This document shows, one piece after another, positions 1,289 through 58,722 of a stretch of DNA of 64,000 nt. Position numbers and translations under genes: made by a program. The first letter of the stretch is position 1, and each line of letters starts with the position of its first letter. The notes below the pieces were generated by a model. It made no database searches and was not told the DNA's origin. It saw only the letters and a list, made by a program, of their open reading frames with translations. Origin of the DNA: Octopus vulgaris (taxonomy: Eukaryota); contig OX597816.1 of the NCBI GenBank assembly GCA_951406725.2, positions 121,830,001 through 121,894,000 on the forward strand, written 5' to 3'.

Positions 1289-2633
1289 TTTCCACGTCAG
1301 GAGGGTATGTTTTGATTGTCGTTAGTTTGTCCATCTATGTGCAAAATAACTCAGAAAGTTGTGAACGGTATTCAATGAAACTTGCAGGAAAAGTTGGTAA
1401 TGACACAAGGAACTGATGATGAAATTTTGGTAGTGATCCAGGAATTTTTATGGATTCTTGAAGGATTTTTCATTTGTTATATTTACTTTACATGAAGTAT
1501 TGTTACGTACTTTGATTATCTCCCTTGAAAACACTTCAGCTCCATGTAACCTATGGTGGTGTTGCTGTTTCCAAAGTTTATTTTTGTTTCTCTATTAGTA
1601 ATTTTACTTGCGTATCTATCTTAAAATGAGCTGCTTGGCAGAGGTCTGCAGAGGATGACATGACAAGCCTTGACTATTGGGATCGACTCAAAAAGCTCAG
1701 GCTTTGCTCCCTCCACTGCCGCTGTGAGCTCTATTTCATCTGTATGATGTGGAAAATATTCCATCAACATTGCTCATCTTTAAAATTTGTCCAAGGCTTG
1801 GGCCCCGTGCCATCTGTCCACTATAGAAATGTTCATGTCATATCACAACACTATGACAGAACTATTTCACCTCAATTGGCCCTGTTCTCTTCAACATCGT
1901 GCCAGACACACATAAGGGAGGAAAGTGACTTCACAGCATTCAAACGATCCCTAGATGATTACCCCCAACAAATACCAGATAAACCATCCACACTCAGATA
2001 CGTCTCTGAAAACAATAACCCTCTGCTTGAATGGGCTACGGTTCCCCAGAGCTGACTGTGTATCTCTTCCAGGTGGTGCTAATAAATTAGACATGGCCTG
2101 AGTCAACTTCAGCAGAAACTTATCTAAGTAATCTAATCTATGCTGTAACCTTTTAATCAAAGCATGACAACATGGGTAGAGGCTGATATCTTAACATTTC
2201 TGATGGTCTTAAGTATAAAAAAAAATTATCAAAGATTTATATAGAACTACATTCAGAGTATGTCTATAAGCTATTGTGTTTAGACCTAGTTTCTATCCTC
2301 AAACTGTTCCATTTTGTAGAATGCAATTTTTTTTTTTAATAAAGCCCTCCAAAATTAGAAAAATGAAAAATCTGCAACAATCTCAGTCCCATGAGTATCA
2401 GATAATGGATTTTCAACTGTGTAAAGAAACTGATTGTGGTGATCGTAGTTTTGATGGTGATTGTGGTGAAAGCAGAGACAGTGTTGATGATGATGATGGT
2501 TGAGATAGGTATGGGAGAAGGTTATGGTTTTGCTGGCATTGGTTTGGGAAATTGGGCAATTTAAAGCATGCATGTGTATGGGTGGAAATGAGCTGCTTGG
2601 CAGAGGTCTGCGCTTTCCGAGTGCTTTTCTAGT
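1289..2633 (+). mobile_element. Non-autonomous Helentron/Helitron-associated element(s), HINE-like, interrupted
   Basis: 5' end ggagggtatgttttgattgtcgttagtttgtc; 3' end cttggcagaggtctgcgctttccgagtgcttttctagt (sub-terminal repeat, short hairpin, CTAGT). The 3' motif appears twice (1624-1649 and 2586-2611). Confidence 0.6.
1650..2140 (+). mobile_element. CR1/L2-like LINE 3' fragment
   Basis: Translation LDYWDRLKKLRLCSLHCRCE...FKRSLDDYPQQIPDKP resembles a LINE ORF2 C-terminus. The 3' end ccaggtggtgct...agacatggcctg has a short-repeat tail and recurs in reverse at about 37845-37925. Confidence 0.65.
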
Positions 2634-5600
2634 TTCAGGTAAGTGTCTTCCATCATAGATTTAGATCAAACTGAACTGTGTGAACAAATCTGGCGAATGG
2701 AAACTTTGCAAACGGCTATCAGAGGGAACTATATCAGTTCTTATGTGGACTTGAAGATAACTCAATATTTTGCTGCACTGCTTCCTACAGCAGCAACCCA
2801 TGAGTCATGGTTTTACCACCCTTTCCAAAACAGTCTCAGAGAACTTGTATAAAGACTATAGCTACTGCCTTTTACCTATGACTTAGTCATAAAGTAAAAG
2901 TTCCAAGTCAACCCAGATCCAGTGAACCTATAATCAAAGACCTTCCAGCCATGATTACTCTGTCTTCTAACTAGATAGTATAACAAACACTTCATTACCT
3001 AATAAGTCCCTTACTTTATTTCAGAAGGGTAGAATATGATTCAGCTACTATTTCTAGTAAGTTAAGTGAGCATATAGAAGTTTCCTTTTTAGCATGAGGG
3101 AGATATACTGCTTGCTGAATCTGCCTAATTTAAGAAATAGATTCCAGATTTGGATTCAGAATTAAATGCTTAAGAACAGAAAAATAATATATCCAGGTAT
3201 GAAACACTTGAGGTACACAAATGTTATCTCTCAGTCTGTTTTGTATGTTAACATGCAAAAACTGATGTAAACAAAAGTACTATCGCTATCTCATGATGAA
3301 TATACAGAAATTTTTAAGCTCAATTGAGAATTCTGATGCACTGGAAAACAATTTTAAAATGAAAATAAAATGTCTTCAACTTGAATACATAGGGAAGAGA
3401 GGGCAACTATGTGAAACAAACAATACAATTTGGTGTACAGAATGCCCTTGGCCAAACTAATAACAGTTAGTCAATAATCAGTGTAAGAGTTCAATTAGTT
3501 ACCTAAAGCACTATATCCAGCCTCAATCCAACCAAGGCCTTGTGAGTGGATTTGCTAAAGAGAAAATGAAAAAAGTCTGTTGTATGAGTGTGTGTGTGTG
3601 TACCTCTTCCTCTTGACATTACATTATTGTTGTAAATGAGTGTCACAGTTATACATGCAGTGTCATTTGTTGTTATGGGGAAATGTAAATTTGCTTGAAA
3701 ACAAGTGAAGGTTGACAACAGAAAGGACATCTAGCCATAGGAAATCTGCTTAAACAAATTCTTTTTCACCAATGCAAGTATGGAAAAGTGAGCATTAAGG
3801 TGGTAGCAGTGGTTGTGTTGATGAAATGGTGGCAACAAAACAGTACAAAAATTTTATTTTATATTACTAGCTCAAAAGACACTATTTAGAAATTGCTCAC
3901 AGGCCACTATTGAAAAACTAAGCTGCTACAGCTAAGATGATTATTAGCATTAGATTTCAAATAGCATTAGTACCTAATAAATAAATTAGGGTTCCTGATA
4001 TGTATTGGATAGATAGAATTCTCAACACCAAAGTGTGAAACAAAGAACAGCCTATAAGTAAGCTCCATATTCTAAACCAACAATATCTGAGATGACAAAA
4101 ATATGCTTGATGATTGGCTGCTGAGATTATTCCCAAAGACTTAGATGAAAATATAATCCTTAATGACAGAGTAAACAAAACTAGATTAACACAGGGCCCA
4201 AAATGCTAAAGCAACTGGAACAATCAAAATATTATCATTTTAACATTCATTTTATAACATACAGCATATTGCTGCTTATCTTGGACTTTTTTTGTCACAA
4301 CTGTAGTGCTTCAATGTTATAAAATCTAACTTCAGAAAATCAACATATTACAATATATTAATAGCACTACAGTATTTGTAGTTCTAAGTGAGCAGAAGTC
4401 ACTTTACAGCAAGAACTTGCAACTTTAAAGAGTGATTAATGATGTTAAAATGAAATTTTGCTTTTTCAAAGTGAAAAAATATTGATTTCAAAGTGGGATT
4501 AGGACAAACAAGTTTATTTCATAGAAAATATACCACCAAAATTTCGCTTACAAGTGGTGTTGATGACAAATCCAATATTGTACCTTCATTTATGCTTCAT
4601 AAGGTGATGGATTGTTATTTATTACCATGTACAAATAATCAGGTAGTTCCTCAACTTACACATTGCATCTACCTCAGTTACTCAAATCAATGCTGTAGAT
4701 CGAGAAAGGTCCTTGTAGTCAATCCCTAATCACAATAATATGTAAATTTTGAGCAATGTTGGACAAAGCTATCTTCATGCCTTATAAAATGAACTGCACA
4801 GGAGAAACTACTTTTCAGAACTCTGTATGAAGTTTGGCTTCCAATGGTTGATAAATAGTGGGGTTCTGTTTTTGTTTTATTTATATCAATACTGTATTTT
4901 CTGTATGATAGTCTTCCTTGTTACATCTTTAGATGTAGATACCTGATTTAATTAGCTAAGAACAACCCAAGTTTAAGTTTTGTTTAATTGAAATGTCCTC
5001 ACTTTGAAATAGTTATTGCCCCTTTGAAGTGACAAGTACACACTAAAAATTACAAATACTGCAATAGTAGTTCAATATTTGATATTCTTGATTGATTTCC
5101 TCCAGAAATCTGGTCTACAGGCAAACAGGAAAATAAGTAAGATATAATAAGCTACTGAAATGCTCAACAACAGAAATGAAACCAATCGATTCTATAAAAG
5201 AAAGGTATAATGAGTGGGTGACAGAATCAGTAGAGCATTAGTTGAAGTGAGTTCTTGCTCAGGTCCACCTTGCCCTATTATCTTTCTGTTATTGAATGTT
5301 ATCAACATTAACAAAAGTAGAGATGGCCCAATGTAACTAACAAATCATTGACCAAAATCAGAAAATCTTGGGAACTTTCAAATAACACATGGTGCCACTG
5401 AGACATCAGGTTATGATGAACTCTCCAAAAATGAATACATAAAATATGTATTTATGAAAAAATAAAATCAAGAGAATAAGAAGTCCTATAGAAAACACAC
5501 ACAAAAACCCCACCTCATATAAGGCTTTAAAATGTTGGCCAGATCTAACCCATTAGAGTTAAGGTGAATCAATATACTTAATGTGTCAACAAAAATATGA

Positions 5601-5668
5601 TGGAAGATTATTTTTCCTTGGGTCACGAACTGCCATGTAGATGGCAAACTTGAGGCAAAATTTATTTA

Positions 5669-7169
5669 TGAGGTACATTCCAGAAGTTTTGAGACTTTTT
5701 TTAAGGAGAAACAGTTATAACTGTCTGAGATTTTATTGTCATTATCATCATCGTTTAACGTCCGTTCTCCATGCTAGCATGGGTTGGACGGTTCGACTGG
5801 GGATCTGGGAAGCCAGAAGGCTGCACCAGGCTCCAGTCTGATCTGGCAGTGTTTCTACAGCTGGATGCCCTTCCTAATGCCAACCACTCCATGAGTGTAG
5901 TGGGTGCTATTTACATGCCAGGCGAGGCTGGCAACGGCCGCGATCGGATTGGTGCATTTTATGTGCCACCGGCACAGAAGCTAGTCGAGGCGGCGCTGGC
6001 ATCGGCCACGTTCGGATGGTGCTTTTTACGTGCCACCGGCACAGGGATCACAACTGCAGTTTCCATTGATTTTGATGTTGGTGTACTTGACTCAATGGAT
6101 CTCCTCAAGCACAGGGGCGAAATGGTGTTTCTTCACTTGCCACCTGCACAGGAGTCAGTCCAGCGGTCCTGGCAACTGCCGGGTGCCAGTCATAGGATTG
6201 GTTCAATTTCGATTTCACTTGCCCCAACAGGTCTTCGCAAGCAGAGTTTAGTGTCCAATGAAGGGAGGTTGGCATCGGTGCCTGTCGTTGGATGAGGTTT
6301 GATTTCAACTTTGCTTGCCTCAACAGATCTTCGTGTGTCCAAGGGAGGAAAGGCATGCATAAGTAGGCTGGACTCACTTGTCCTGCCAGGTCTTCGATTT
6401 TAGTATATTATTACTGTACATCTAATAAGTTGGCCTGCTAACATTTTAAAATCCAGATTGAAGGAGTCAGCTGCAAGTGCACTTTGGATACACCCTACTA
6501 AACACTACTTGTCACAGCTGACTAATTTACAGAATGCAGTTGGGATGTGAAGACAATTTGGAAGCTCACTATGCATTAAAGATCTGTGTTAAACAGGGCA
6601 GGAATACTACAGAAAATTATGAAATGCTCCAGCATGTATTTGTATTAACTTGTATGAGTCGAGCATTTGTTTCTCGCTGGTAAAAGAGGCCAGGAAAAGC
6701 AAGTCTGACAGGAAGCTCATGATGATACCCTCTTTTGACAGGAAGGGTAACATCAACATCCACTGGGTTCCCTCTGGTCAGACAGTCAACCAGGCGTACT
6801 TAATGGAGGTTTTGAGTGAGTTCAGGAAGAGATTTCATTGCAAAAGTCCAAAACACATGTACCAAGACAATACAACAGTCCACAATTCCATTGTGGTAAC
6901 TATCTGCTTGAGAGATATGAGCATCAAAATTGTCCCTCACTCTTTCTAAAGTCCTGACTTTGCTCCCAGTTTTGGTTGTTCCCCAAGCTGAAGGAGATCT
7001 GACAAAGTTCTTGGACACCTTCATTTTGGAGAATTTCTATGGGGTCTTCACAAAGTGGTTGGGATGCTACAACAAAAGCACTGAAGTCAGAGGATCCAAC
7101 TTTGAAGGTGATTAGTGTTTTACACTCCTTTGAAAATAATTAAGGTTTCCTCTTCTGAAAAGCACCTTG
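5669..7169 (+). mobile_element. Degenerate mariner transposon with a nested RTE insertion
   Basis: TA-flanked imperfect TIRs (tgaggtacattccagaag / cttctgaaaagcaccttg). Transposase remnant ...LMMIPSFDRKGNINIHWVPSGQTVNQAY...YQDNTTVHNS at 6650-6949. Confidence 0.7.
5742..6396 (-). mobile_element. 5'-truncated RTE LINE copy (ORF end and 3' UTR)
   Basis: Reverse complement closely matches about 53565-54170, with the ccatgctagcatgg hairpin and (GAT)n tail. Confidence 0.85.
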
Positions 7170-7667
7170 TACAGTTCAGATTTAATTTCTAATCACAACT
7201 ATTTCATTTACCTAACTAACACTTTTAAAAAGATAAAGTATAAACATCATAATTTCTGCTCTCCAGCTCCTAATATCAAGATAAATTACCAAAGGATGGA
7301 TATTTCTGATAATGAAAATTCAAGTAATTAACTATTTATAAGTGGGTGGAAATGCTTAGAATTATTTCCTGTATTTTCAAATGACAAAGCAATATTAGTC
7401 ACCATAAACTAATATTGTTTTTATTTTTTCATGATGTAACATTTTTCATGTTCCAAACTTTAAAAATATTATAGCCAATGTAAATATCATGTATCATGTG
7501 GAGGTTGCCCAAGGAATTGTTGAAATTTTAATTTTCTCATTCTCTCTCTTCACACACACAGAATAGCTATCTCATGGATTAGAAATACGACATAACATTT
7601 CTGCTCAAGATTACAAAGCAAAGTAGAGTGTCCAGTTACATTCCAGAACTTGACAATGGATATATAT

Positions 7668-7985
7668 CATCATCATCAACATCAACATCGTTTAGCATCC
7701 GTTTTCCATGCTAGCATGGGTTGAATGGTTCAACTGGGGTCTGGGAAGCCAGAAGGCTGCACCAGGCCCAGTCTGATCTGGCAATGTTTCTACGGCTGGA
7801 TGCCCTTCCTAATGCCAACCACTCCGTGAGTGTAGTGGGTGCGTTTTACGTGCCACCAGCACAGGTGCCAGACGAGGCTGGCAAACGGCCACAATTGGAT
7901 GGTGCTTTTTACATGCCACCAGTACGGAGGCCAGGCGAGGCTGGCAATGGCCACGATCGGATGGTGTTTTTTATATGCCACTGGC
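7668..7985 (-). mobile_element. RTE 3' UTR fragment
   Basis: Same terminal motifs as 54000-54170 (ggatgcccttcctaatgccaaccactccgtgagtgtagtgggtgc). Confidence 0.8.
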
Positions 7986-8459
7986 ATATATATATCTATA
8001 TAATTACCCACCAACTATTAATATTTTTTTCCACAGCATATTTTAATGTTCCAATCATTAAAAAATACTTTAAAATGCACTTAACTCTCTTACACCAGCA
8101 CTTAACTATCGCACTGGTAAGGAAATTAAATAAAGACATTAACATAGATAAGCAGAATAACATTTCCTGGTTCCTAAACACTTATCAATATGAAAGAGAT
8201 GCTTTCATAAATAAAACATGATTTAAAGATGCTTTTATGCCATCATGACTAACACAGATGAGTCAATGAGAGAGAGAGCCTTTACATGGCTATTTGATCC
8301 ACTAGACATATCGGCCTAATATCCCTCAAATCACACACTACCATCTTAATAAAAGGACACTTGACATAATGTGCTCTATATGTCCTAAAGTAAAAGGATG
8401 GTCATGGCTGGAATGATTTTAATTACAGGTCAACTCAATTAAGACTAGGATGCCAGGCT

Positions 8460-8825
8460 AGACAGCAATGACTGTGTGCTTAAGAAGTTTGCTTTGCAAC
8501 ATCATGGTTTTGAGTTGAGTCCCACTGCTCAGCACCTTGGATAAGTGTCTACTGCCATACCTCCAGGTCAACCAATGCCGTGTAAGTGAATTCAGTAGAT
8601 GAAAACTGTGTTGAAGCCTGTCGTGTGTGTTTGTATTCATCCCCTCCACTGCTTGACAACCGGTGTTGGTTTGCTTACATCCCCAAGGCTTAGCAACACA
8701 TAAAAACAAAAAAAAATTATAGAATAAATACTAAACTTAAAAATAAGCACTGGGCTTGGTTTGTTCAACTAAACCCTTCAACACAGTGCCCCAGCATGGC
8801 ACAGTTCAATGACTGAAGATAAAAG
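8460..8825 (+). mobile_element. tRNA-derived SINE
   Basis: Degenerate tRNA-like head and a body shared with copies at about 13920-14305, 24985-25315 and 60180-60335, and in reverse at 11168, 15760, 42468 and 62990. Confidence 0.7.
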
Positions 8826-10537
8826 ATATGTTAGTCAAGTCAAACTGGCGTGGAACATATAAAACAAATATAAAAAAAAGTCAGTAGAGAAAGCAGTTTC
8901 TTTGAGGAAATGGCATAATAACTATCTACCATAAGACAACTTCAAAAGAAGTATTCAGGTACCACCAGATGACCCCTCTTCCCCATGACCTAAAATGCTG
9001 GTGATAAATTCTTTTTGAATTTTCCAATAAAAATGAGCATAATAAACCAGACTATACATGGTTTAACATAGCAAGGGGGGAAAAAAGTGGTTTTATGCAT
9101 AAATTATGCAGCTAGTGATGAGAGAATCTATGGCAGTTTTGAGAAATTATACAGATAGATTTATATAGCATCATCATCATCATCATTTACTGTCTGCTTT
9201 TCCATGCTTGCATGAGTCAGATGGAATTTATTGAAGCAAATTTTGTACAGCCAGATGTCCTTCGTGTTGCTAACCATCACCAGTTTCCAAGCATAGTAAA
9301 TATTTCCCCTTTAACCAGACAGACATGTTTTTTTTTTTACAGAAGATTGGAAATAAAATGAGCTTTTATGATGGTGGTGCTCATTTGATAATGATTACAT
9401 GATGTCAAGACAAGAGAATACACACACACACCATCATAATTTAATATCTGTTTTCCATGCTGGCATAGGTTGGACAGTTTGACCAGACACTGTGAGGCAA
9501 AAGGCTGCAACATGCCCCACATCAGCTCTGACATGGTTCCTATGGCTGGATGCCTTTCCAAGCACCAATCATTTTACAGTGTGTACTGTGATGCCTTCCC
9601 ATACCAGTGGCACTAGTGGGATTGCCAAGTAACTTGCAAGACAAGAAAGAACAAGAAAAGGGGAAAAGGAAAAAGCCCACTTGACTAAGTGGATGTGGAG
9701 TATTGGAGAGGTGATTTTATGCCAGGGATAAACAGAGATATCTTGCTATAGAGAAGATATATGGCTACCCCATATTTACGTAAGGGTGGATGAGAGTATC
9801 AGAGAAACTGGCAAGATGGTAGAGATGGAGTGCCAGAGCAAAACCCTCAAAGAAGCAAGAGATATGGGGGAGAGGGCAGTTATAAGCATGCGAGGGGAGA
9901 GAGAGAGAGAGAGAGAGAGGGTACTAGAGGTGAATGTAAATATGTTGAGGTCATGAACAAGGATGGAGGTGCAGCTTGATGGGAAATATCAGTATGGGTG
10001 GAATGACTGTAAGATGAGAGAGGGGAGTGGCTCAAGGATGATAGTTCAGGAAGTAATGATAGCTAATATGTGAGGAGTTAGGATGAAACATGGCAGGTGA
10101 GAGAGGGGAATGACTGGAGGCTTATGGCCATGATAATAATGAACAAGAGTGATATGAGTGGTGGGAAGACAGTAACTGATAGCAAAAAAAGTTAGGGAAT
10201 GTTGAGAGAAGGGGGTATGTTGAGAGATGAGATGTGGTGGAATACTTGACAAGGCAGTATGGGTGTAAGGACAGCACCCAGTACATGGAGGAGGGGATAA
10301 ATAGGGAGATGAGATGTGGGGAATGCTTGAAAGGGCAGAGTGGGCACAGGGACAGCAATCAGCACATGGGGAAGGGGATAAGAAGGGAGATGAGATGTTG
10401 GGATACGAGGGGTGGGGAATAGGGAGAGGCAATGTGGGGAGACTAGGCTGCTTTTAGTCTGCTACAAAATCTGATCACAAGACTTTGGTCAGCCCATGTC
10501 TATAGTATAAAACACTTACCAAAAGTGTCATATAGAG

Positions 10538-11441: not shown

Positions 11442-12010
11442 TGATGGGCTTCTTCCAGTTTCCATCTACCAAATCACGCCACAAGGCTTTGCTTGACCCA
11501 AGGCTATAGTAGAGGACATGTAGTGGGTGCTTTTTATGTGTCATCGGCTCAAGGGCTAGTCAAGCAGTACTGGCATCAACCATGCTTGAATGGTGCTTTT
11601 TAAGTGCCACCCACATGGGAGCCAGTCAGGCGACACTAGCAATGACCACGCTTGAATGATTTTTTTATGTGCCACTAGCACAGGACCAATCAGTCAGCAC
11701 TGGCGTTGACCATGATCGAATGGTGCTTTTTACGTGCCACCGGCACAGGTGCCAATCAAGTGGGACTGTCATTGGCCATGACAACAACTTCACTTGCCTC
11801 AGCAGGTCTTTGCAAGCCCAATTTATTGCCCAATGATTGAAGGGTACTCTTAAATGGGCTGGTTATGTTGCGCTGGCATAGGCTACGGTTATGGTCTTAT
11901 TTGGCATGCCGTGTCTTCTCAAGCACAGCATATCTTCAAAGGTCTTGGTCACTTATCATCACCTCGGTGAGGCCCAACATTTGAAGGTCGTGCTTCACCA
12001 CCTCATCCCA
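11168..12010 (-). mobile_element. SINE with internal TA/CA microsatellite, followed by an RTE-family 3' fragment
   Basis: SINE end ttttacttgtttcagtcatttgagtgcggcc; from about 11520, the RTE 3' UTR tandem units (tggtgctttttacgtgccac). Confidence 0.7.
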
Positions 12011-30804: not shown

Positions 30805-31236
30805 TGTTCGAGCGTGATTGTTGCCGGGACTGCTGACTGGCTCCTGTGCCGGTGGCACGTAAAATGCACCATTTGAGCGTGATCATTGGCAGCGTCACCT
30901 GACTGGCTCCTGTGTTGGTGGCACGTAAAAAAAAACCCATTTGAGTGTGGTCATTGCCAGTGCTGCCGGACTGGCTCCCATGCAGGTGGCATGTAAAAAG
31001 CACCATTTGAGCATGGTCAATGCCAGTACCACCTGATTGGCCCTCATACTGATGGCGTGTAAAAGCACCCACTACACTCTTGGAGTGGTTGGCGTTAGGA
31101 AGGGCATCCAGCTGTAGAAACTTTGCCAGATCAGATTGGAACTTGGTGCAGCCTTCTGGCTTGCCAGCCCTCAGTCAAACCATCCAACCCATGCCAGCAT
31201 GGAAAGCAGATGTTAAACAATAATGATGATGATGAT
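30805..31236 (+). mobile_element. RTE 3' UTR fragment with tandem ~60-bp units
   Basis: Repeated gactggctcctgtgccggtggcacgtaaaa units, terminal hairpin and (GAT)n tail. Confidence 0.8.
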
Positions 31237-41604: not shown

Positions 41605-42467
41605 AAATTTTAATCCCATATGCATCCATATCCATACAAATCTTCTATATATATATGCACATTTCTGTTTCTTCTCAGTCCCTCATTATGCATCAATGAT
41701 AATTATAAAGACAAAATAAATATTAACACATGTCCATGGGCAGTGTTCTGTCAAAACATAAATGCTGTAAAGATGGCTCCATAACAAAAAGGAGTGTACA
41801 GATAACCATGAATACAATGAAATGGTTGCTTTATGATTTACACACACTACTATGCAACACTCCTCCAAAAAACATGGGAATAAACTCATACAGTAAATAC
41901 CTAATAAAATGAACCCCACAACATATGCCATAGATGTTCGATACCAAACAGAATAACACAACCTGCACTACACAAAAAACACACAATACAAAAACTAATA
42001 CAACAGAAGCCTCAAGCCAATCTCCATAACAAAATATACTGATGCAATACAATATTCCCCAAGGGTAAAAAAAAAAAAAAGAAAAAAATGTGAAGCACAT
42101 ACCCTATCAGCATGAAAGTGCAGCAAGTGATGCAATAAAAAGTTACTTGAAACTATCAGATGTTGGGTAATAATAATAACAGTGATGATGATAGTGACAG
42201 ACATTACCTTATCTCAGTTTATGAGAGACAAAAGTTTGCAAAGAAACTCTGATTGTAACAGTGAAAATGAAGTTAAACATTTAAGGGAAGGCCTCTCACT
42301 CAACAATGGTTCAGTAAAGATGCAGACTGACCACAGCTGTTATCCTAAGACATCATCAGCAGATAATAGAGTAAGGAAGAGGAAGTGGACCAGCGAAAAA
42401 AAACAGGATAGTGATGCAGTGTTACTTAGAAAGTGAACCTACAAGAAGTTGTTATAGAAAACAGATA

Positions 42468-42666
42468 CTCTTTTACTCGTTTCAGTCATTTGACTGCGGC
42501 CACGCTGGAGCACCGCCTTTTAGTTGAGCAAATCGACTCCAGGACTTATTTTTTGGAAGCTTAGTACTTACTCTATCGATCTCTTTTGCCAAACCGCTAA
42601 GTTACGGGAACATAAACATACCACCATTAGTTGTCAAGTGATGTTGGGGGGACAAACACAGACAAA

Positions 42667-42725
<59 letters not shown>

Positions 42726-43003
42726 CAAATAAAAATAAAAACAGAACACAAAGGATATCGCAGTACACGTGTTTCAAGCTTTATAAACAACCCATTATTA
42801 CATCAGTGTATTATTGATATAAAAGATGATTTAAAGCTCTCTTCAGCTGCAAACATTGTTAGTCCAAAGAATTACATCACAACATAAAAAAATATGAAAA
42901 ACACATGTAGTATTTCCCATTATAATAGGTTTGTCATATCTCTTTCAAAAAGTGTATAAAGATTCATTGGATTTTGAAAATCTGCCCATACTGTATCACC
43001 AGT

Positions 43004-43061
<58 letters not shown>

Positions 43062-43236
43062 GCATACATATATACAACAGGCTTCTTTCAGTTTCTGTCT
43101 ACCAAATCCACTCACAAGGCTTTGGTTGGCCCGAGGCTATAGTAGAAGACACTTGCCCAAGATGCCACACAGTGGGAATGAACCCGGAACCATGTGTTTG
43201 GTAAGCAAGCTACTTACCACACAACCACTCCTGTGC
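42468..43236 (-). mobile_element. tRNA-derived SINE inserted in the R4/Dong element; its microsatellite carries a ~285-bp insert
   Basis: SINE 3' end ctcttttactcgtttcagtcatttgactgcggcc and head near 43230. The LINE reading frame resumes afterwards (LTFWVEKGMF). Confidence 0.8.
42760..42850 (-). ncRNA. Minimal type I hammerhead ribozyme (Penelope-like element or retrozyme type)
   Basis: Minus strand reads GCAG-CUGAAGA-GAGCUUUA[loop]UAAAGCUU-GAAAC-ACGU-GUA-CUGC. Stem I is GCAG/CUGC, the CUGANGA and GAAA core boxes are intact, stem II is 8 bp, stem III is minimal with a palindromic ACGU loop, and the cleavage triplet is GUA. Confidence 0.75.
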
Positions 43237-45228
43237 CTACTAACATTTTGGGTAGAGAAGGGTATGTTTAAAGTGACTGAGCAGAGCCTAGTAGATCAAG
43301 CTAATGCTATTAGGAGAAGAAAGTGGATGACAGAATTGGACAGAAAGACCAAGCAGTAGGAAAGACAAACAACAACAACATAAGAGATACAGGTCAAACC
43401 AAAGAAGACCCTAAAGAAAAACGTAATAATAGCACTACCAATAATGAAGGGACTACTGGCACCAGCGATTTAAGGGATTTAATTGAGGAAGATCAGAAGA
43501 TTTTAGATGAGCTGCAGGAAATGAGTAAAGGAGTAAGAAAAAGATAGCCAACATTAAAAGGTACCAACATACATTGTCTGCTATATTCAGTATAGCAGAC
43601 AACATAATAGAATTAATTAGTTGTAGCATGAAGTAATGGAAAGTAGATCTCTACTCAGTTGACATGGTCTTAGGGAAGGTTAATATCAAGAGAGGAATTT
43701 GCCAAGGAGACTTGTTATCCCCTTTAATATTTGTCTTATGTTTGATCCCCCTCAGTTCAGTATTAAGGAAGGCAAAGGCAGGGTATCAGTTCAGTAATAG
43801 TAAGAGAAAAATTAACCATTTGCTTTACATGGATGATCTGAAACTTTTTAAGTAAAGATGAAAAATCTTTAATACAGACTGTAAGACTCTTCAGCAAAGA
43901 TATAGGCATGGAATTTGGCATAGATAAGTGTGCAATATTAGTCACGAGAAGGAGATAAGTAGTCTGCAGCAAAGGCATCCAATTAGCAGATGGCCAGACA
44001 TTAAAATCACTGAAAGAAGGAGAGAGTTATAAGAGTATTAGAATCTGACAGAGAACTAACTGTAGAAATGAAAACGAAAACTGAGAAGGAGTACATCAGA
44101 AGGGAAGCTAATGAAGTCAATGCTAAATGGTCTCAATGTAGTGAAGGCTGTAAATACTTGGGCAGTAACATTACTTGCAAAGCAAGACAGAACTAGGAAG
44201 GAATTCAATATGAATGGAGGACTCCATCCAAAAGCTGGAATAGCAAGATTATACTTACCTAGAAAGGAAAATGGAAGAAGATTAATATCAGTAGAAAGTT
44301 GTGTGGAGTTAGCTAGAGTTGATATAGACTCCTGTGTAGGTAATAGTGAAGAAAGAGCTGCTAAAGTCACAACAAGACATAGAGAAATCAAAAAAATCTA
44401 ACAAAGTTAAAAATCAGAAAAAGAACAAAAGTTATCTGATGGGCAGAAGAAAGCTTTGCACAGTAGAAACTCAAATAGCACTAGTGAGACATGGTTATGG
44501 TTGCAGAAAGGAAGGCTGAAAAGAGAGACAGAAAGTTTATTAGTAGCAGCACAAATCAAGCATTAAGGATTAATTGGATAAAAGCCAGGATAGACAAAAA
44601 CCAAGTAGATTCCCAATGTAGGTTATGCAAATCAAAAGAGGAAAGTGTTACTCATATAGTAAGTGAATGTAGCATGCTGGTGCAGAAAAAATACAAGAAA
44701 AGACATGACAATCCAGGAAGAGTCATCCACTGGGTGTTATGTAGAAAGCTAGGATTTGACCATACAGATAAATGGTATGAATATGAACTTAGTAAAGTAC
44801 TAGAAAGTAAGAAATATAGGATGTCATGAGACTTTAACATTCAGGCTGACAGAGTAGTAGAAGCCTGATTTAGTAGTAGTAGTAGATAAAGAGAATAGAA
44901 AATGCCAGATAATTGACTTTACAGCCCCAAATGATGAAAAAATCAATATGAGAGGTATAGAAAATAGAAAATAGGACCTAGCAGAGACTATGGAAATTGT
45001 GGATAAAATGTATCTCAGTAGTTACAGGTGCATTAGGGACTATCCCTATAGATTTGAACAGATGGATAGAGGAAATAGGTACAAAACCCAGTTTAGTACA
45101 GTTCCAGGAAACAGAGTTATTAGGGGCAGCTAGGATACTTAGGAGGGTTCTTGGCATCTAAAGTTACTTGCCTAATGTTAGGAATTTTTTTTTTTTTTTC
45201 CAACAGTCTAATATGTTGTGTGTATATA

Positions 45229-45280
<52 letters not shown>

Positions 45281-46407
45281 GCCCTGATGCAGTACCAGGC
45301 AGTGGCTCTCATGGCTTCTGATCTTAACTGATTGGAAGTGTTATCATGTACATTGTTTTGTCTTGGTATAAAAGATGGGCTACAGCAAATATTCTGCTCA
45401 ATACCACAGATTTGCTTGTCAGTTGTTTGACCTTAACCAGTTGAGCATGTCCCTTAGTGGCTGACGATATGTGCATCTCTGATCATGAGCAGAAGTAGTG
45501 GGGGAGCATCATAGCCATGTGTTGAGAGGGATTCTTTGGGGTTTGAATAGTTCACCTCTGGAAACATGGGTGGTTCTTTCAACATCCTTAAACAACCCTT
45601 ATTCAGGGACCGTTTGAGCGGGATGGGCTACTCAACCTGAAGAAAATTCTAACTGGGCCCCACCCGCAAGGTCATGTGCTGTTTATCTTGATATGAGATC
45701 ACCATGTCGCGCACATATGGTTGTGATGCATGTGCCTGGTGTACCTTTATCAGACGGGTAGTCATGATGGGTATATTGGGCTTCGTATATTTTACCCCAG
45801 TGTCACTTTGATGGCATGAACTGCTCTCTCACTCAATAATAATAATAATAATAAATGCTCTGATGCAGTACCAGGCAGCGGCTCTCATGGCTTCTGATCT
45901 TAACTGACTGGAAGTGTTATCATGTACATTGTTTTGTCTTGGTATAAAAGATGGGCTACAGCAAATATTCTGCTCAATACCACAGATTTGCTTGTCAGTT
46001 GTTTGACCTTAACCAGTTGACCATGTCTCTTAGTGGCTGACGATATGTGCATCTCTGATCATGAGTAGAAGTAGTGGGGGAGCATCATAGCCATGTGTTG
46101 AGAGGGATTCTTTGGGGTTTGAATGATTCACCTCTGGAAACATGGGTGTTTCATTCAACATCCTTAAACAACCCTTATTCAGGGACCTTTTGAGTGGGAT
46201 GGGTTACCCAACCAGAAGAAAATTCTAACTGGGCCCCACCCGCAAGGTCATGCGCTGTTTATCTTGTTATGAGATCACCATGTCGCGCACATATGGTTGT
46301 GATGCATGTGCCTGGTGTACCCTTATCAGACGGGTAGTCATGATGGGTATACTGGGCTTCGTATATTTGTACCCCAGTGTCACTTTGATGGCATGCACTG
46401 CTCTCTC
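45281..46407. repeat. Two tandem ~550-bp non-coding elements (45281-45834 and 45857-46407), each bounded by (AAT)n
   Basis: Both start gc(c/t)ctgatgcagtaccaggcag and end ctgctctctc, with scattered substitutions between copies. Confidence 0.9.
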
Positions 46408-46461
<54 letters not shown>

Positions 46462-52153: not shown

Positions 52154-54172
52154 AATAATTACAGAGGTATCAAGCTGTTGGATCAGGTGATGAAGGTTAC
52201 AGAGAGGGTCATAACCCAACTAATTAGAGAGAGAGTTAGTTTAGATGAGATGCAGTTTGGGTTCGTGCCAGGGAAAAGTACCACTGATGCTATATTCCTG
52301 GTAAGGCAGCTGCAGGAGAAATACCTAGCCAAAGATAAGCCCCTGTACCTGGCTTTTGTTGACATGGAGAAAGCCTTCGACAGGGTCCCCCGATCCCTCA
52401 TCTGGTGGTCAATGAGGAAACTAGGGATAAATGAATGGTTAGTGAGAGCTGTGCGAGCCATGTACAGGGACGCTGCTAGTAAGGTGAGGGTTGGCAACGA
52501 GTACAGTGAAGAATTCTGGGTAGAGGTAGGGGTCCACCAAGGCTCAGTCCTCAGCCCCCTCCTATTTATCATAGTCCTCCAGGCAATAACGGAGGAATTC
52601 AAGACAGGATGCCCCTGGGAGCTCCTCTATGCTGATGACCTTGCTCTAATTGCTGAGTCACTATCAGAACTAGAGGAGAAGTTTCAGGTGTGGAAGCAAG
52701 GTTTAGAATCGAAGGGCCTTAGAGTCAATCTAGCTAAAACCAAAGTCGTAATAAGTAGGAAGGTAGACAAATCACAAACGCCTTCAAGTAGATGGCCCTG
52801 CTCGATCTGTAGAAAAGGTGTAGGTAGAAACTCTATAAGATGCACCAAGTGTAAGCTATGGACACATAAGAGGTGCAGCAATGTCAAAGGAAGGCTAACT
52901 AGGAAGATGGTTTTTGTATGTGGCAGATGCTCGGGAGCATTAACCTCTGAAAATCTGCAGAAAACAACTTCCGTCACTTTCCAGGGGAAAAAACTAGAAG
53001 TAGTTGATAGCTTCCGTTATCTTGGTGACCAAGTCAGTAGTGGGGGTGGGTGTGCTGAAAGTGTAACGGCTAGAGTAAGAATAGCCTGGGCGAAGTTTAG
53101 GGAGCTCTTACCTCTGCTGGTGACTAAAGGCCTCTTGCTCAGAGTAAAAGGCAGACTGTATGATGCATGTGTACGAACAGCCATGCTACATGGCAGTGAA
53201 ACATGGGCCGTGACTGCTGAGGACATGCGTAAGCTCGCGAGAAATGAAGCTAGTATGCTCCGATGGATGTGTAATGTCAGTGTGCATGTTCGACAGAGCG
53301 TTAGTACCCTGAGAGAAATGTTGGACCTAAGGAGCATCAGTTGTGGTGTGCAAGAGAGACGATTGCGCTGGTATGGTCATGTGGCGAGAATGGATGAAGA
53401 TAGGTGTGTGAAAAAGTGCTAATCCCTAGCAGTGGAGGGAAGCCGTGGAAGAGGTAGACCCAGGAAAACTTGGGAATGAGGTGGTGAAGCATGACCTTCG
53501 AACTTTAGGTCTCACTGAGGAAATGACCAGCGACCGAGACCTTTGGAAATATGCTGTGCGTGAAAAGACCAGACAGGACAAGTGAGTCCAGCCCACTTAT
53601 GCATGCCTTTCCTCCCTTGGACACACAAAGACCTGTTGAGGCAAGCGAAGTCGATATCAAACCTCATCCGACGACAGGCACCTATGCCAACCCCACTTTG
53701 CTTGTGAAGACCTGTTGGGGCAAGTGAAATCGGAATCGAAATTGAACCAATCCTATGACTGGCACCCGGCAGATGCCAGGACCCCTAGATTGGAGATACG
53801 TAAAAAGCACTATCCGAATCATGGCCGATGCCAGCGCCGCCTCGACTGGCTTCCGTGTCGGTGGCACGTAAAAAGCACCATCCGAATCGTGGCCGAAGCC
53901 AGTGCCACCTCGACTGGCTTCCGTGCAGGTGGCACGTAAAATGCACCAATCCGACCATGGCCGATGCCAGCCTCGCCTGGCACCAGTGCAGGTGGCACGT
54001 AAAAGCACCCACTACACTCACGGAGTGGTTGGCGTTAGGAAGGGCATCCAGCTGTAGAAACATTGCCAGATAAGACCGGAGCCTGGTGCAGCCTTCTGGC
54101 TTCCCAGATCCCCGGTCGAACCGTCCAACCCATGCTAGCATGGAGAACGGACGTTAAACGATGATGAAGATG
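52154..54172 (+). mobile_element. Young 5'-truncated RTE-clade LINE (RT ORF 52178-53422 plus 3' UTR)
   Basis: Motifs NYRGIKLL, QFGFVPGKSTTDAIF, FVDMEKAFD, GVHQGSVLSP, YADD, RLRWYGHV, and GRGRPRKTW after a premature TAA. The 3' UTR has tandem units, a terminal hairpin and a (GAT)n tail. No endonuclease domain is present. Confidence 0.95.
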
Positions 54173-57331: not shown

Positions 57332-57877
57332 GGCAAAGTTTCGCATGTCGTAGCGCAGATTTCCGTCGATTTCCGTAAAAAACTTTTATTTTTTTACATA
57401 AGTAATGAGAGCGAAAGAGACTAAGAGGAAGCGATTTTATGACGAGAAGGTTTCACTTTGAAATCGGCCTGTGTGTGTTTGATGGGGTGTGGGAGACAGA
57501 CAGTATGTTGTGTAAGTGAAGTGCTTCTGTTGGTGTGTGCGAAGAGACAGAGAGAGTAATGTGTGAAAGAGAGAGATAACTGATTTTTTACTCGGTGTAT
57601 GTGTATATGTATGTATGCATGTATGTGTATATGTATGTATGCATGTATCTATGTATGTGTGTGTGTGTATGTATGTATGTATGGCCGATTCATCGTAATT
57701 TTTTACTCGGTGTATGTGTATATGTATGTCTGCATGTATGTGTGTGTGTGTGTATGTATCTATGTATGTGTGTATGTGTATGTATGTATGTGTGTATGTA
57801 TGTATGGTCGATTCAGTGTAATTTTTTACTCGATGTATGTGTATATGTATGTCTGCATGTATGTGTGTGTGTGTATG

Positions 57878-57908
<31 letters not shown>

Positions 57909-58371
57909 AAGTATGTGTGTGTGTATGTATGTGTGTATGTGTGTGTGTATGTATCTATGTATGTGTGTGTGTGTATGTATGTATATACACATACACCGAG
58001 TACATACTGTCTCTTCACACACACACATACATAGATACATACACACACACAACATACTGTCTGTCTCCCACACACACACACACACATAGATACATACACA
58101 CACACACATACATGCAGACATACATATACACATACACCGAGTAAAAAATTACGATGAATCAGCCATACATACATACATACACACATACATACATACACAC
58201 ACACACATACATAGATACATACACACACATACATACATACATACACACACACATACTTACACACACACACACACACATAGATACATACACACACACACAT
58301 ACATGCAGACATACATATACACATACACCGAGTAAAAAATTACGATGAATCGGCCATACATACATACATAC

Positions 58372-58404
<33 letters not shown>

Positions 58405-58722
58405 TACATAGATACATACACACACACACATACATGCATACATACATATACACATACACCGAGTAAAAAATCAGTTATCTCTCTCTTTCACACATTACTC
58501 TCTCTGTCTCTTCGCACATACTAACAGAAGCACTTCACTTACACAACATACTGTCTGTCTCCCACACCCCATCAAACACACACAGGCCGACTTCAAAGTG
58601 AAACCTTCTCGTCATAAAATCGCTTCCTCTTAGTCTCTTTCGCTCTCATTACTTATGTAAAAAAATAAAAGTTTTTTACGGAAATCGACGGAAATCTGCG
58701 CTACGACATGCGAAACTTCGCC
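57332..58722. mobile_element. Foldback element with long modular inverted arms in HADH intron 1
   Basis: About 260 bp of complex sequence (ggcaaagtttcgcatgtcgtagcgcag...) is inverted at 58460-58722 with few mismatches. It is followed inward by three microsatellite-rich modules per arm (tttttactcggtgtatg / cataca-ccgagtaaaaa). Confidence 0.9.

What the first reader, a model, noticed from the sequence alone, without database searches (positions are those of the whole stretch)
42760..42850. Minimal hammerhead ribozyme nested three levels deep (pLTR-like insert in a SINE microsatellite in an R4/Dong LINE)
Seen: the minus strand has every hammerhead core nucleotide in order (stem I GCAG/CUGC, CUGAAGA, 8-bp stem II closed by G-U, GAAAC, palindromic ACGU loop, GUA cleavage site). 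It sits in a ~285-bp insert (about 42720-43006) in the SINE's CA/TA tract. Established: Penelope-like elements and retrozymes carry minimal hammerheads with palindromic loop III that are thought to cleave as dimers. Inference: this is a solo pLTR or retrozyme LTR of a microsatellite-associated family. It lies on the same strand as the host SINE, so a SINE read-through transcript could self-cleave.
Basis: partly seen in the sequence, partly recalled or inferred. Interest (0 to 1): 0.75.

Follow-up and report, generated by a model that had tools for sequence, protein, structure and literature searches.

The report
Hammerhead end of octopus Penelope retrotransposon
This self-cutting-RNA motif is real but ordinary: it is the leftover end of a known kind of jumping gene (a Penelope-like element of the Hydra type) that landed inside two older repeats, one of tens of thousands of such motifs in this octopus-like genome, and this lone worn copy likely no longer cuts.

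Summary
Observation confirmed. The minus strand at 42852-42758 holds a complete minimal type I hammerhead with a 64-nt helix II and an 8-nt palindrome for helix III. The insert (about 42720-43010) is the 3' end (pLTR) of a 5'-truncated Penelope-like element, not a retrozyme: at least 344 copies, and one locus carries this pLTR on both sides of a decayed RT + GIY-YIG ORF. The ORF has the Hydra-clade motifs (DKT, CxCX5C-type linker, no CCHH); a Hydra element with a hammerhead is already published from Octopus. All three nesting levels hold (empty LINE site in 11 of 11 copies). Genome-wide there are 23,439 long-helix-II cores (control 225). Stems I and II covary across 19 families, and loop III switches between six palindromes, which supports cleavage as a dimer. 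Inside this family there is no significant covariation; this copy's 'compensatory' A-U pair is two CpG transitions. SINE read-through cleavage is unlikely: four oligo-T tracts precede the ribozyme and no partner hammerhead lies in the window. The scan noted this class before on other DNA of this genome (e1-8669779). New member of a known kind; the long helix II is the only unusual trait.

The parts
42758..42852 (-). Minimal type I hammerhead ribozyme motif (stem I open; predicted cleavage between 42764 and 42763, after GUA)
42840..42846 (-). CUGAAGA core strand
42776..42839 (-). 64-nt helix II: 8-bp base opened by G10.1-U11.1, extended by a 4-bp and an 8-bp helix
   Evidence: (probabilities 0.96-0.99 for the first five pairs)
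42765..42772 (-). Self-complementary ACACGUGU (helix III + loop III); predicted 8-bp intermolecular duplex
   Evidence: monomer pairs about 0.01, duplex -10.3 kcal/mol
42720..43010 (-). 5'-truncated 3' end (pLTR) of a Hydra-type Penelope-like element; has a 29-bp deletion against most copies and no tail
42652..42725 (.). (CA)n/(TA)n part of the SINE's internal microsatellite, at the 3' end of the PLE insert
43008..43074 (.). (TA)n part of the same microsatellite, at the 5' end of the PLE insert
42466..43239 (-). Host SINE with tRNA-like head (A/B-box-like motifs, recognised from recall) and an internal microsatellite, split by the PLE insert
41605..45280 (+). Decayed LINE (R4/Dong-like by recalled motifs) split by the SINE in its N-terminal coding region, with an internal deletion of about 1 kb at 43569/43582

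Best explanation
The motif is the hammerhead ribozyme in the terminal repeat of a Penelope-like retrotransposon with Hydra-clade protein motifs, left as a 5'-truncated 290-bp end inside the TA microsatellite of a SINE that itself sits in a LINE; in the parent element it would likely cut only as a dimer, and this lone copy is probably inert. Shown: the same pLTR flanks an RT + GIY-YIG ORF on both sides, on the same strand, at locus L031. Copies share a fixed 3' end that runs into a microsatellite or into the PLE 'tail', and vary at the 5' end. Inferred mechanism: the element's endonuclease nicked the (TA)n tract, the RT copied the RNA from the 3' pLTR and stopped after about 290 nt. In a full element or tandem unit, one transcript carries two hammerheads (5.5 kb apart in this family once nested insertions are subtracted, 4.76 kb in the sister family). 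Their palindromes would pair into an 8-bp shared helix III and cut after GUA, releasing a unit-length RNA. The long helix II would be tolerated or used as a structural arm; its role is untested.
For: Multi-copy: 931 candidates, 40 scored; 344 exact-stem-II copies against 0 control. L031: pLTRs 97.4% identical over 467 nt flank RT (YRDD) and GIY-YIG pieces. L032 independently joins the GIY-YIG part to the pLTR. Sister subfamily (73-74% DNA identity in the RT) has an 835-aa open frame with a hammerhead 5' and 3' of the ORF (L158 4536 and 9295). Its model (pLDDT 78.6) hits telomerase RT at ranks 1-6. Hydra motifs DKT, RWA, CNCICASEC, CQLC, CIH present, no CCHH, no GxKF/Y (definitions in PMC8557442 section 11). 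3' ends of 30 copies: 12 tail, 17 microsatellite, 1 other; 9 of 30 have an inverted partner. Dimer logic: loop III palindromic in 17 of 30 cores not selected on the loop (chance 1 in 16), six different palindromes, 12 of the other 13 one change away; the sister subfamily has ACAUAUGU. Stems I and II pair within but not between 19 families (69 vs 18.4 and 98 vs 38.4 pairs; 0 of 10,000 permutations).
Against: No cleavage data for this family. PMC4209133 found no cleavage for a single min-HHR and only low activity for dimers. In PMC11167929 hammerhead mutants did not affect insertion in vitro, and no RNA-seq reads ended at the cut site, so the role in transposition is open. Clade placement rests on motifs, not on a tree; RWK reads RWA, the linker is CxCX4C in L031, and the elements are longer than the <3 kb typical of Hydra. 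Pfam gave only a weak RVT_1 hit (E 0.0045) for one of 7 pieces and no RT or GIY-YIG hit for the 835-aa ORF. No intact ORF of the window's own subfamily was seen among the loci fetched. The 30 cores are not independent (families repeat).
Confidence: 0.88

Rival explanations
1. Non-LTR retrozyme monomer: a non-coding hammerhead repeat of about 300 nt that spreads through circular RNA.
For: Many copies are about 300 bp with no ORF. About a dozen share a 5' end within some 20 nt of this copy's (by eye). Retrozymes derive from pLTRs (bioRxiv 10.64898/2026.07.22.740005), and earlier notes describe retrozyme arrays in this genome (unchecked).
Against: 0 of 30 copies have a same-strand neighbour. Homology runs on upstream through about 2 kb of non-coding DNA into the GIY-YIG and RT region. 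5' ends vary from query position 1 to 156.
Confidence: 0.05
2. The inserted hammerhead is active at this locus: a SINE or host-gene read-through RNA self-cleaves, in cis or by pairing with another copy's RNA.
For: Core, helix II and palindrome are intact and stem I still pairs (6 bp). Same strand as the SINE. At least 344 close copies could supply a partner palindrome.
Against: Four oligo-T tracts lie before the ribozyme on the SINE strand. Stem I is only 0.30-0.41 formed and helix III about 0.01. The A-U pair replacing G-C is two CpG transitions, absent from 30 of 30 unbiased copies on the 5' side. The copy is about 9% diverged from its family.
Confidence: 0.06
3. The parent belongs to Neptune or Nematis rather than Hydra (same mechanism, other clade).
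For: C-terminal GIY-YIG with a Cys linker and (TA)n targeting are shared with Neptune; the length exceeds typical Hydra.
Against: No CX2-5CxxC, no CCHH, DKT instead of DKG, which PMC8557442 gives as Hydra-specific.
Confidence: 0.05
4. Chance resemblance to a hammerhead.
For: Fold z-score -1.09; no Rfam match.
Against: 0 of 150 simulated windows; 3258 vs 3 and 23,439 vs 225 genome-wide against reversed-pattern controls; cross-family covariation.
Confidence: 0.01

Closest known systems
Hydra-clade Penelope-like elements, including Hydra-1_Obim of Octopus bimaculoides (Craig et al. 2021, PMC8557442; seen: abstract, passages, section 11, supplement part 2 of 59)
   Same: RT then C-terminal GIY-YIG; DKT; CxCX5C-type linker; no CCHH; CxxC and CxH motifs; (TA)n target; sense-strand hammerhead near the 3' end. 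G-U at 10.1-11.1 and GUA sites also occur in their table (Penelope-13_HM, -17_HM).
   Different: Their listed Hydra hammerheads have short helices II (loops of 3-10 nt) and a 3-4 bp helix III with a 1-3 nt loop; here helix II spans 64 nt and helix III is a perfect 8-nt palindrome. Elements here are 4.8-5.5 kb with about 2 kb of 3' non-coding DNA, against <3 kb. The Hydra-1_Obim hammerhead is a different sequence.
Minimal type I hammerheads of metazoan PLEs (Cervera and de la Pena 2014, PMC4209133; seen: parts 1-2 of 4)
   Same: In pLTRs; helix I 4-6 bp, helix II base 7-8 bp, palindromic helix III; mostly solo, some inverted pairs; thought to act as dimers.
   Different: No bulged nucleotide between 9 and 10.1; G-U rather than the conserved G-C at 10.1-11.1 (U in 97 of the first 100 listed, counted by eye); far longer helix II. 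Count here (at least 23,439 long plus 9,739 short cores) exceeds the 2,000-9,000 per genome that paper gives.
Poseidon PAc of the green anole (Frangieh et al. 2024, PMC11167929; seen: part 1 of 4 and passages)
   Same: pLTR-ORF-pLTR tandem plan, optional tail, AT-rich target, hammerhead at the pLTR/ORF junction.
   Different: Other clade; there the ORF starts inside the hammerhead, here the cut site lies upstream of the open frame.
Animal non-LTR retrozymes (Li, Clavereau and Pollet 2026, bioRxiv 10.64898/2026.07.22.740005; seen: part 1 of 5)
   Same: Type I hammerhead in a short non-coding repeat related to pLTRs.
   Different: Defined by tandem units; this family has none in 30 copies and is joined to its own ORF.

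Membership tests
Minimal type I hammerhead | CUGANGA ... GAAA ... UH core in order with helix I open | tested here: met
Minimal type I hammerhead | Helices I and II supported by covariation | tested here: met
   across 19 families, 0 of 10,000 permutations; not significant within the family
Minimal type I hammerhead | Palindromic, unstable helix III (dimer type) | tested here: met
Minimal type I hammerhead | G10.1-C11.1 pair and bulged base between 9 and 10.1 (common, not obligatory) | tested here: not met
   G-U and no bulge; G-U also in published Hydra hammerheads
Minimal type I hammerhead | Self-cleavage in vitro | not testable with these tools
   needs an assay
EN+ Penelope-like element | pLTR-ORF-pLTR with the hammerhead in the pLTR | tested here: met
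   L031; sister L158
EN+ Penelope-like element | Telomerase-like RT plus GIY-YIG in one ORF | tested here: met
   TERT at ranks 1-6; VIY...YIG motif; Pfam GIY-YIG in only 1 of 20 aligned homologs
EN+ Penelope-like element | 5' truncation, optional tail, inverted partner copies | tested here: met
   12 of 30 tail, 9 of 30 inverted partner
Hydra clade | DKT instead of DKG; GxKF/Y not conserved | tested here: met
   (DKT in L031 and L047; GxKF/Y searched in L047 only)
Hydra clade | RWK motif | tested here: inconclusive
   RWA at that place in L031 and L047
Hydra clade | CxCX5C linker, no CCHH, CxxC and CxH in the endonuclease | tested here: met
   L047 exact, L037 exact; L031 CxCX4C
Hydra clade | (TA)n insertion | tested here: met
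   window site; 17 of 30 end in a microsatellite
Hydra clade | Length generally under 3 kb (typical, not obligatory) | tested here: not met
   4.76 kb unit in L158; about 5.5 kb in L031 after subtracting nested insertions
Hydra clade | Groups with Hydra families in an RT tree | not tested
   reference proteins were not on hand as sequences
Non-LTR retrozyme | Head-to-tail tandem units, each with a hammerhead, no ORF | tested here: not met
   0 of 30; ORF linked

The most novel reading that the evidence does not exclude
Octopus PLEs carry a distinct 'long-arm' minimal hammerhead class (helix II of 50-75 nt, perfect 8-nt palindrome) that Rfam and short-loop descriptors miss and that outnumbers short forms at least 2 to 1. 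The arm is kept in many families with unrelated sequence because it has a job, such as a loop-receptor contact that rescues activity or a binding site for the element's RT. The family-specific palindromes act as pairing codes that let scattered solo copies cut each other's RNAs in trans.
Probability: 0.15. Interest if true: 0.55.

Novelty: new member of a known kind. Interest (0 to 1): 0.2.

Why it matters
As one locus it matters little: it is a worn transposon end. The class offers a natural test of an open question, what PLE hammerheads do. Families with six different palindromes and unrelated stems allow dimer swap experiments, and a young sister subfamily with an open 835-aa frame and near-identical pLTRs gives a matched protein and RNA. 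The counts also show that standard models miss tens of thousands of hammerheads in this genome; a 2026 repeat annotation of Octopus vulgaris has no mention of hammerhead or ribozyme in its main text.

Tried and rejected
Rfam: no hammerhead hit; taken as a model limit, not as evidence against. ARAGORN: no tRNA in the window, so the SINE's tRNA origin rests on recalled box motifs. First reading as Neptune clade: dropped after the motif test. First test of LINE nesting was negative: 6 LINE copies extended upstream (L150-L155) did not match the left flank; a search with the left flank itself then gave 11 of 11 empty sites, so the negative was set aside. Within-family covariation: 55 copies (30 unbiased; 25, ranked by likeness to this copy and including it; L003 and L025 dropped as duplicates, and 2 of the 29 loci scanned gave no core match): G-C 39, G-U 6, A-C 5, A-U 3, other 2; p 0.12; neighbouring pair p 0.055. 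Expression: no RNA holder listed; 4 of 24 runs laid were contigs only and cannot show ends or strand; no conclusion. PDB sequence search: nothing for the single ORF, a retron RT at E 0.0025 for the profile. The 14-of-19 palindrome count is biased by ACGT-selected loci and is not used. One search was uninformative. Literature: 4 searches; 'octopus' + 'hammerhead ribozyme' gave 5 papers (4 listed), none on this class beyond PMC8557442; this does not show that it is unpublished. Supplements of PMC4209133 and PMC11167929 were not opened, those of the bioRxiv preprint are closed, and only part 2 of 59 plus a term search of the PMC8557442 supplement was seen; long-helix-II forms may be shown there.

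Full report
Observation. The minus strand carries all hammerhead core elements in order at 42852-42758: a 6-bp stem I, CUGAAGA, an 8-bp helix II base opened by G-U, GAAA, the palindrome ACACGUGU and a GUA site. Stem I is the open helix, so it is type I. The 48 nt inside helix II fold into two more helices. None of 150 first-order Markov samples of the window gave a comparable motif. Rfam does not detect it, and the fold energy alone is unremarkable.

Nesting. The insert spans about 42720-43010 and has TA repeats on both sides. The SINE runs 43239-42466 on the minus strand; its halves are contiguous in other copies, and loose ends of public contigs pile up at these two bounds. A first test of the LINE level was negative (6 copies). 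A search with the left flank then gave copies in which left and right flanks are adjacent in 11 of 11 examined, 6 of them running on into the RT region. So PLE in SINE in LINE is shown. The name R4/Dong rests on recalled motifs; Dong-R4 LINEs are listed as active in O. vulgaris (PMC13282606, passages).

What the insert is. It is a dispersed repeat: 931 candidates, 40 scored, and 344 copies with the exact helix II base against 0 in the control. This copy is 86.6-93.0% identical to others, mean 91%. In 30 copies chosen only on helix II, 12 end in a shared tail, 17 in a microsatellite and 1 otherwise; 9 have an inverted partner (two reciprocal pairs, so 7 sites) and 0 a same-strand partner within about 1.5 kb. 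Walking upstream leads through about 2 kb of non-coding DNA to an ORF. Locus L031 holds pLTR with hammerhead, tail, RT, Cys linker, GIY-YIG, non-coding stretch and a second pLTR with hammerhead, all on one strand; the pLTRs are 97.4% identical over 467 nt; the ORF is broken by stops, frameshifts and nested repeats. L032 joins the endonuclease part to the pLTR independently.

Clade. A sister subfamily at 73-74% DNA identity has an 835-aa open frame and its own hammerhead at both ends of a 4.76-kb unit. Its predicted structure (pLDDT 78.6) matches telomerase RT at ranks 1-6, as expected for a PLE; Pfam and PDB sequence searches were nearly blank. The best named homologs are from Argonauta and Octopus, hence 'octopus-like'. 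Motifs DKT, RWA, CNCICASEC, VIY...YIG without CCHH, CQLC and CIH match the definition of the Hydra clade (PMC8557442 section 11), which already lists Hydra-1_Obim with a (TA)n target and a hammerhead. Departures: RWA for RWK, CxCX4C in L031, and greater length. No tree was built.

Evidence of selection on the ribozyme. Within this family, stem I changes are CpG transitions and are not significantly coupled (p 0.12 and 0.055 on 55 copies). The window's A-U pair, which replaces the family's G-C, is thus likely two chance decays; 0 of 30 unbiased copies carry that A. Across families the signal is strong. A core pattern with ACGT loop has 3258 matches against 3; with a free loop and a 50-62 nt spacer 23,439 against 225; with an 8-30 nt spacer 9,739 against 412. 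Of the first 30 cores, 17 have a palindromic loop (six different ones), 27 have stem I of 3 bp or more and 20 stem II of 4 bp or more (families repeat, so not independent). With one member for each of 19 families from 87 cores, stems I and II pair far better than in any of 10,000 permutations.

Mechanism. Shown: anatomy, linkage to the ORF, target preference, covariation. Computed: helix III is about 1% formed in the monomer, while two palindromes give an 8-bp duplex of -10.3 kcal/mol. Inferred: the parent RNA carries two hammerheads that pair through the palindromes and cut after GUA to give unit-length RNA, as proposed in PMC4209133; this copy arose by target-primed reverse transcription into (TA)n that stopped early. 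Against: that paper saw only low dimer activity, and in PMC11167929 cleavage was not needed for insertion in vitro. For this locus, activity is unlikely: T4 (42980), T5 (42951), T5 (42901) and T7 (42892) lie between the SINE head and the ribozyme, stem I is only 0.30-0.41 formed, and no second core is in the window. Whether a host gene is read through here was not examined. Public runs gave nothing usable on expression.

Novelty. Hammerheads in pLTRs, Hydra elements in Octopus, microsatellite targeting and solo ends are all published. The 64-nt helix II differs from the Hydra hammerheads in the table I saw (loops of 3-10 nt), though long loops occur there in two plant PLEs. Verdict: real, new member of a known kind, interest 0.2.

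Noticed in passing
G000 genome-wide: At least 23,439 long-helix-II and 9,739 short-helix-II minimal hammerhead cores with a 4-nt loop III; long forms outnumber short ones. Only two subfamilies were linked to an ORF.
   Followed up: partly
L156 4651-7155, L157, L158 (4536-9295): Young sister PLE subfamily: 835-aa open frame, direct repeats 99.4% identical over 2.2 kb, inverted 5' partner copies; hammerhead with ACAUAUGU palindrome and a bulged A after the core.
   Followed up: partly
L003, L009, L014-L018, L021, L023, L024 near position 1486-1498: About a dozen full-span copies begin within some 20 nt of the window copy's 5' end (by eye). May be a preferred truncation or start site; the search ranking biases this and it was not tested.
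   Followed up: no
L031 about 1300-880 and L032 8400-9000: The element's 3' non-coding region itself holds (TA)n/(TG)n microsatellite tracts, its own preferred target, so copies may seed new target sites.
   Followed up: no
L031 about 6400-3250; L037: This subfamily has long Asn-rich low-complexity insertions in the ORF between RT thumb and endonuclease.
   Followed up: no
window 45459-46461: A segment repeated twice at 94-97% identity to other loci (L139, L146), much younger than the adjacent LINE (about 80%).
   Followed up: no
window 7838-7981, 11526-11780, 30833-31069, 53798-54009: Related 63-68 bp tandem units in four places, probably part of one mobile-element family.
   Followed up: no
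window 57583-58471: Large imperfect inverted array of (TGTA)n/(CATA)n repeats with a shared internal segment.
   Followed up: no
L032 3644-4988: Helicase-like frames (PIF1/Helitron-like by recall) next to a PLE copy.
   Followed up: no
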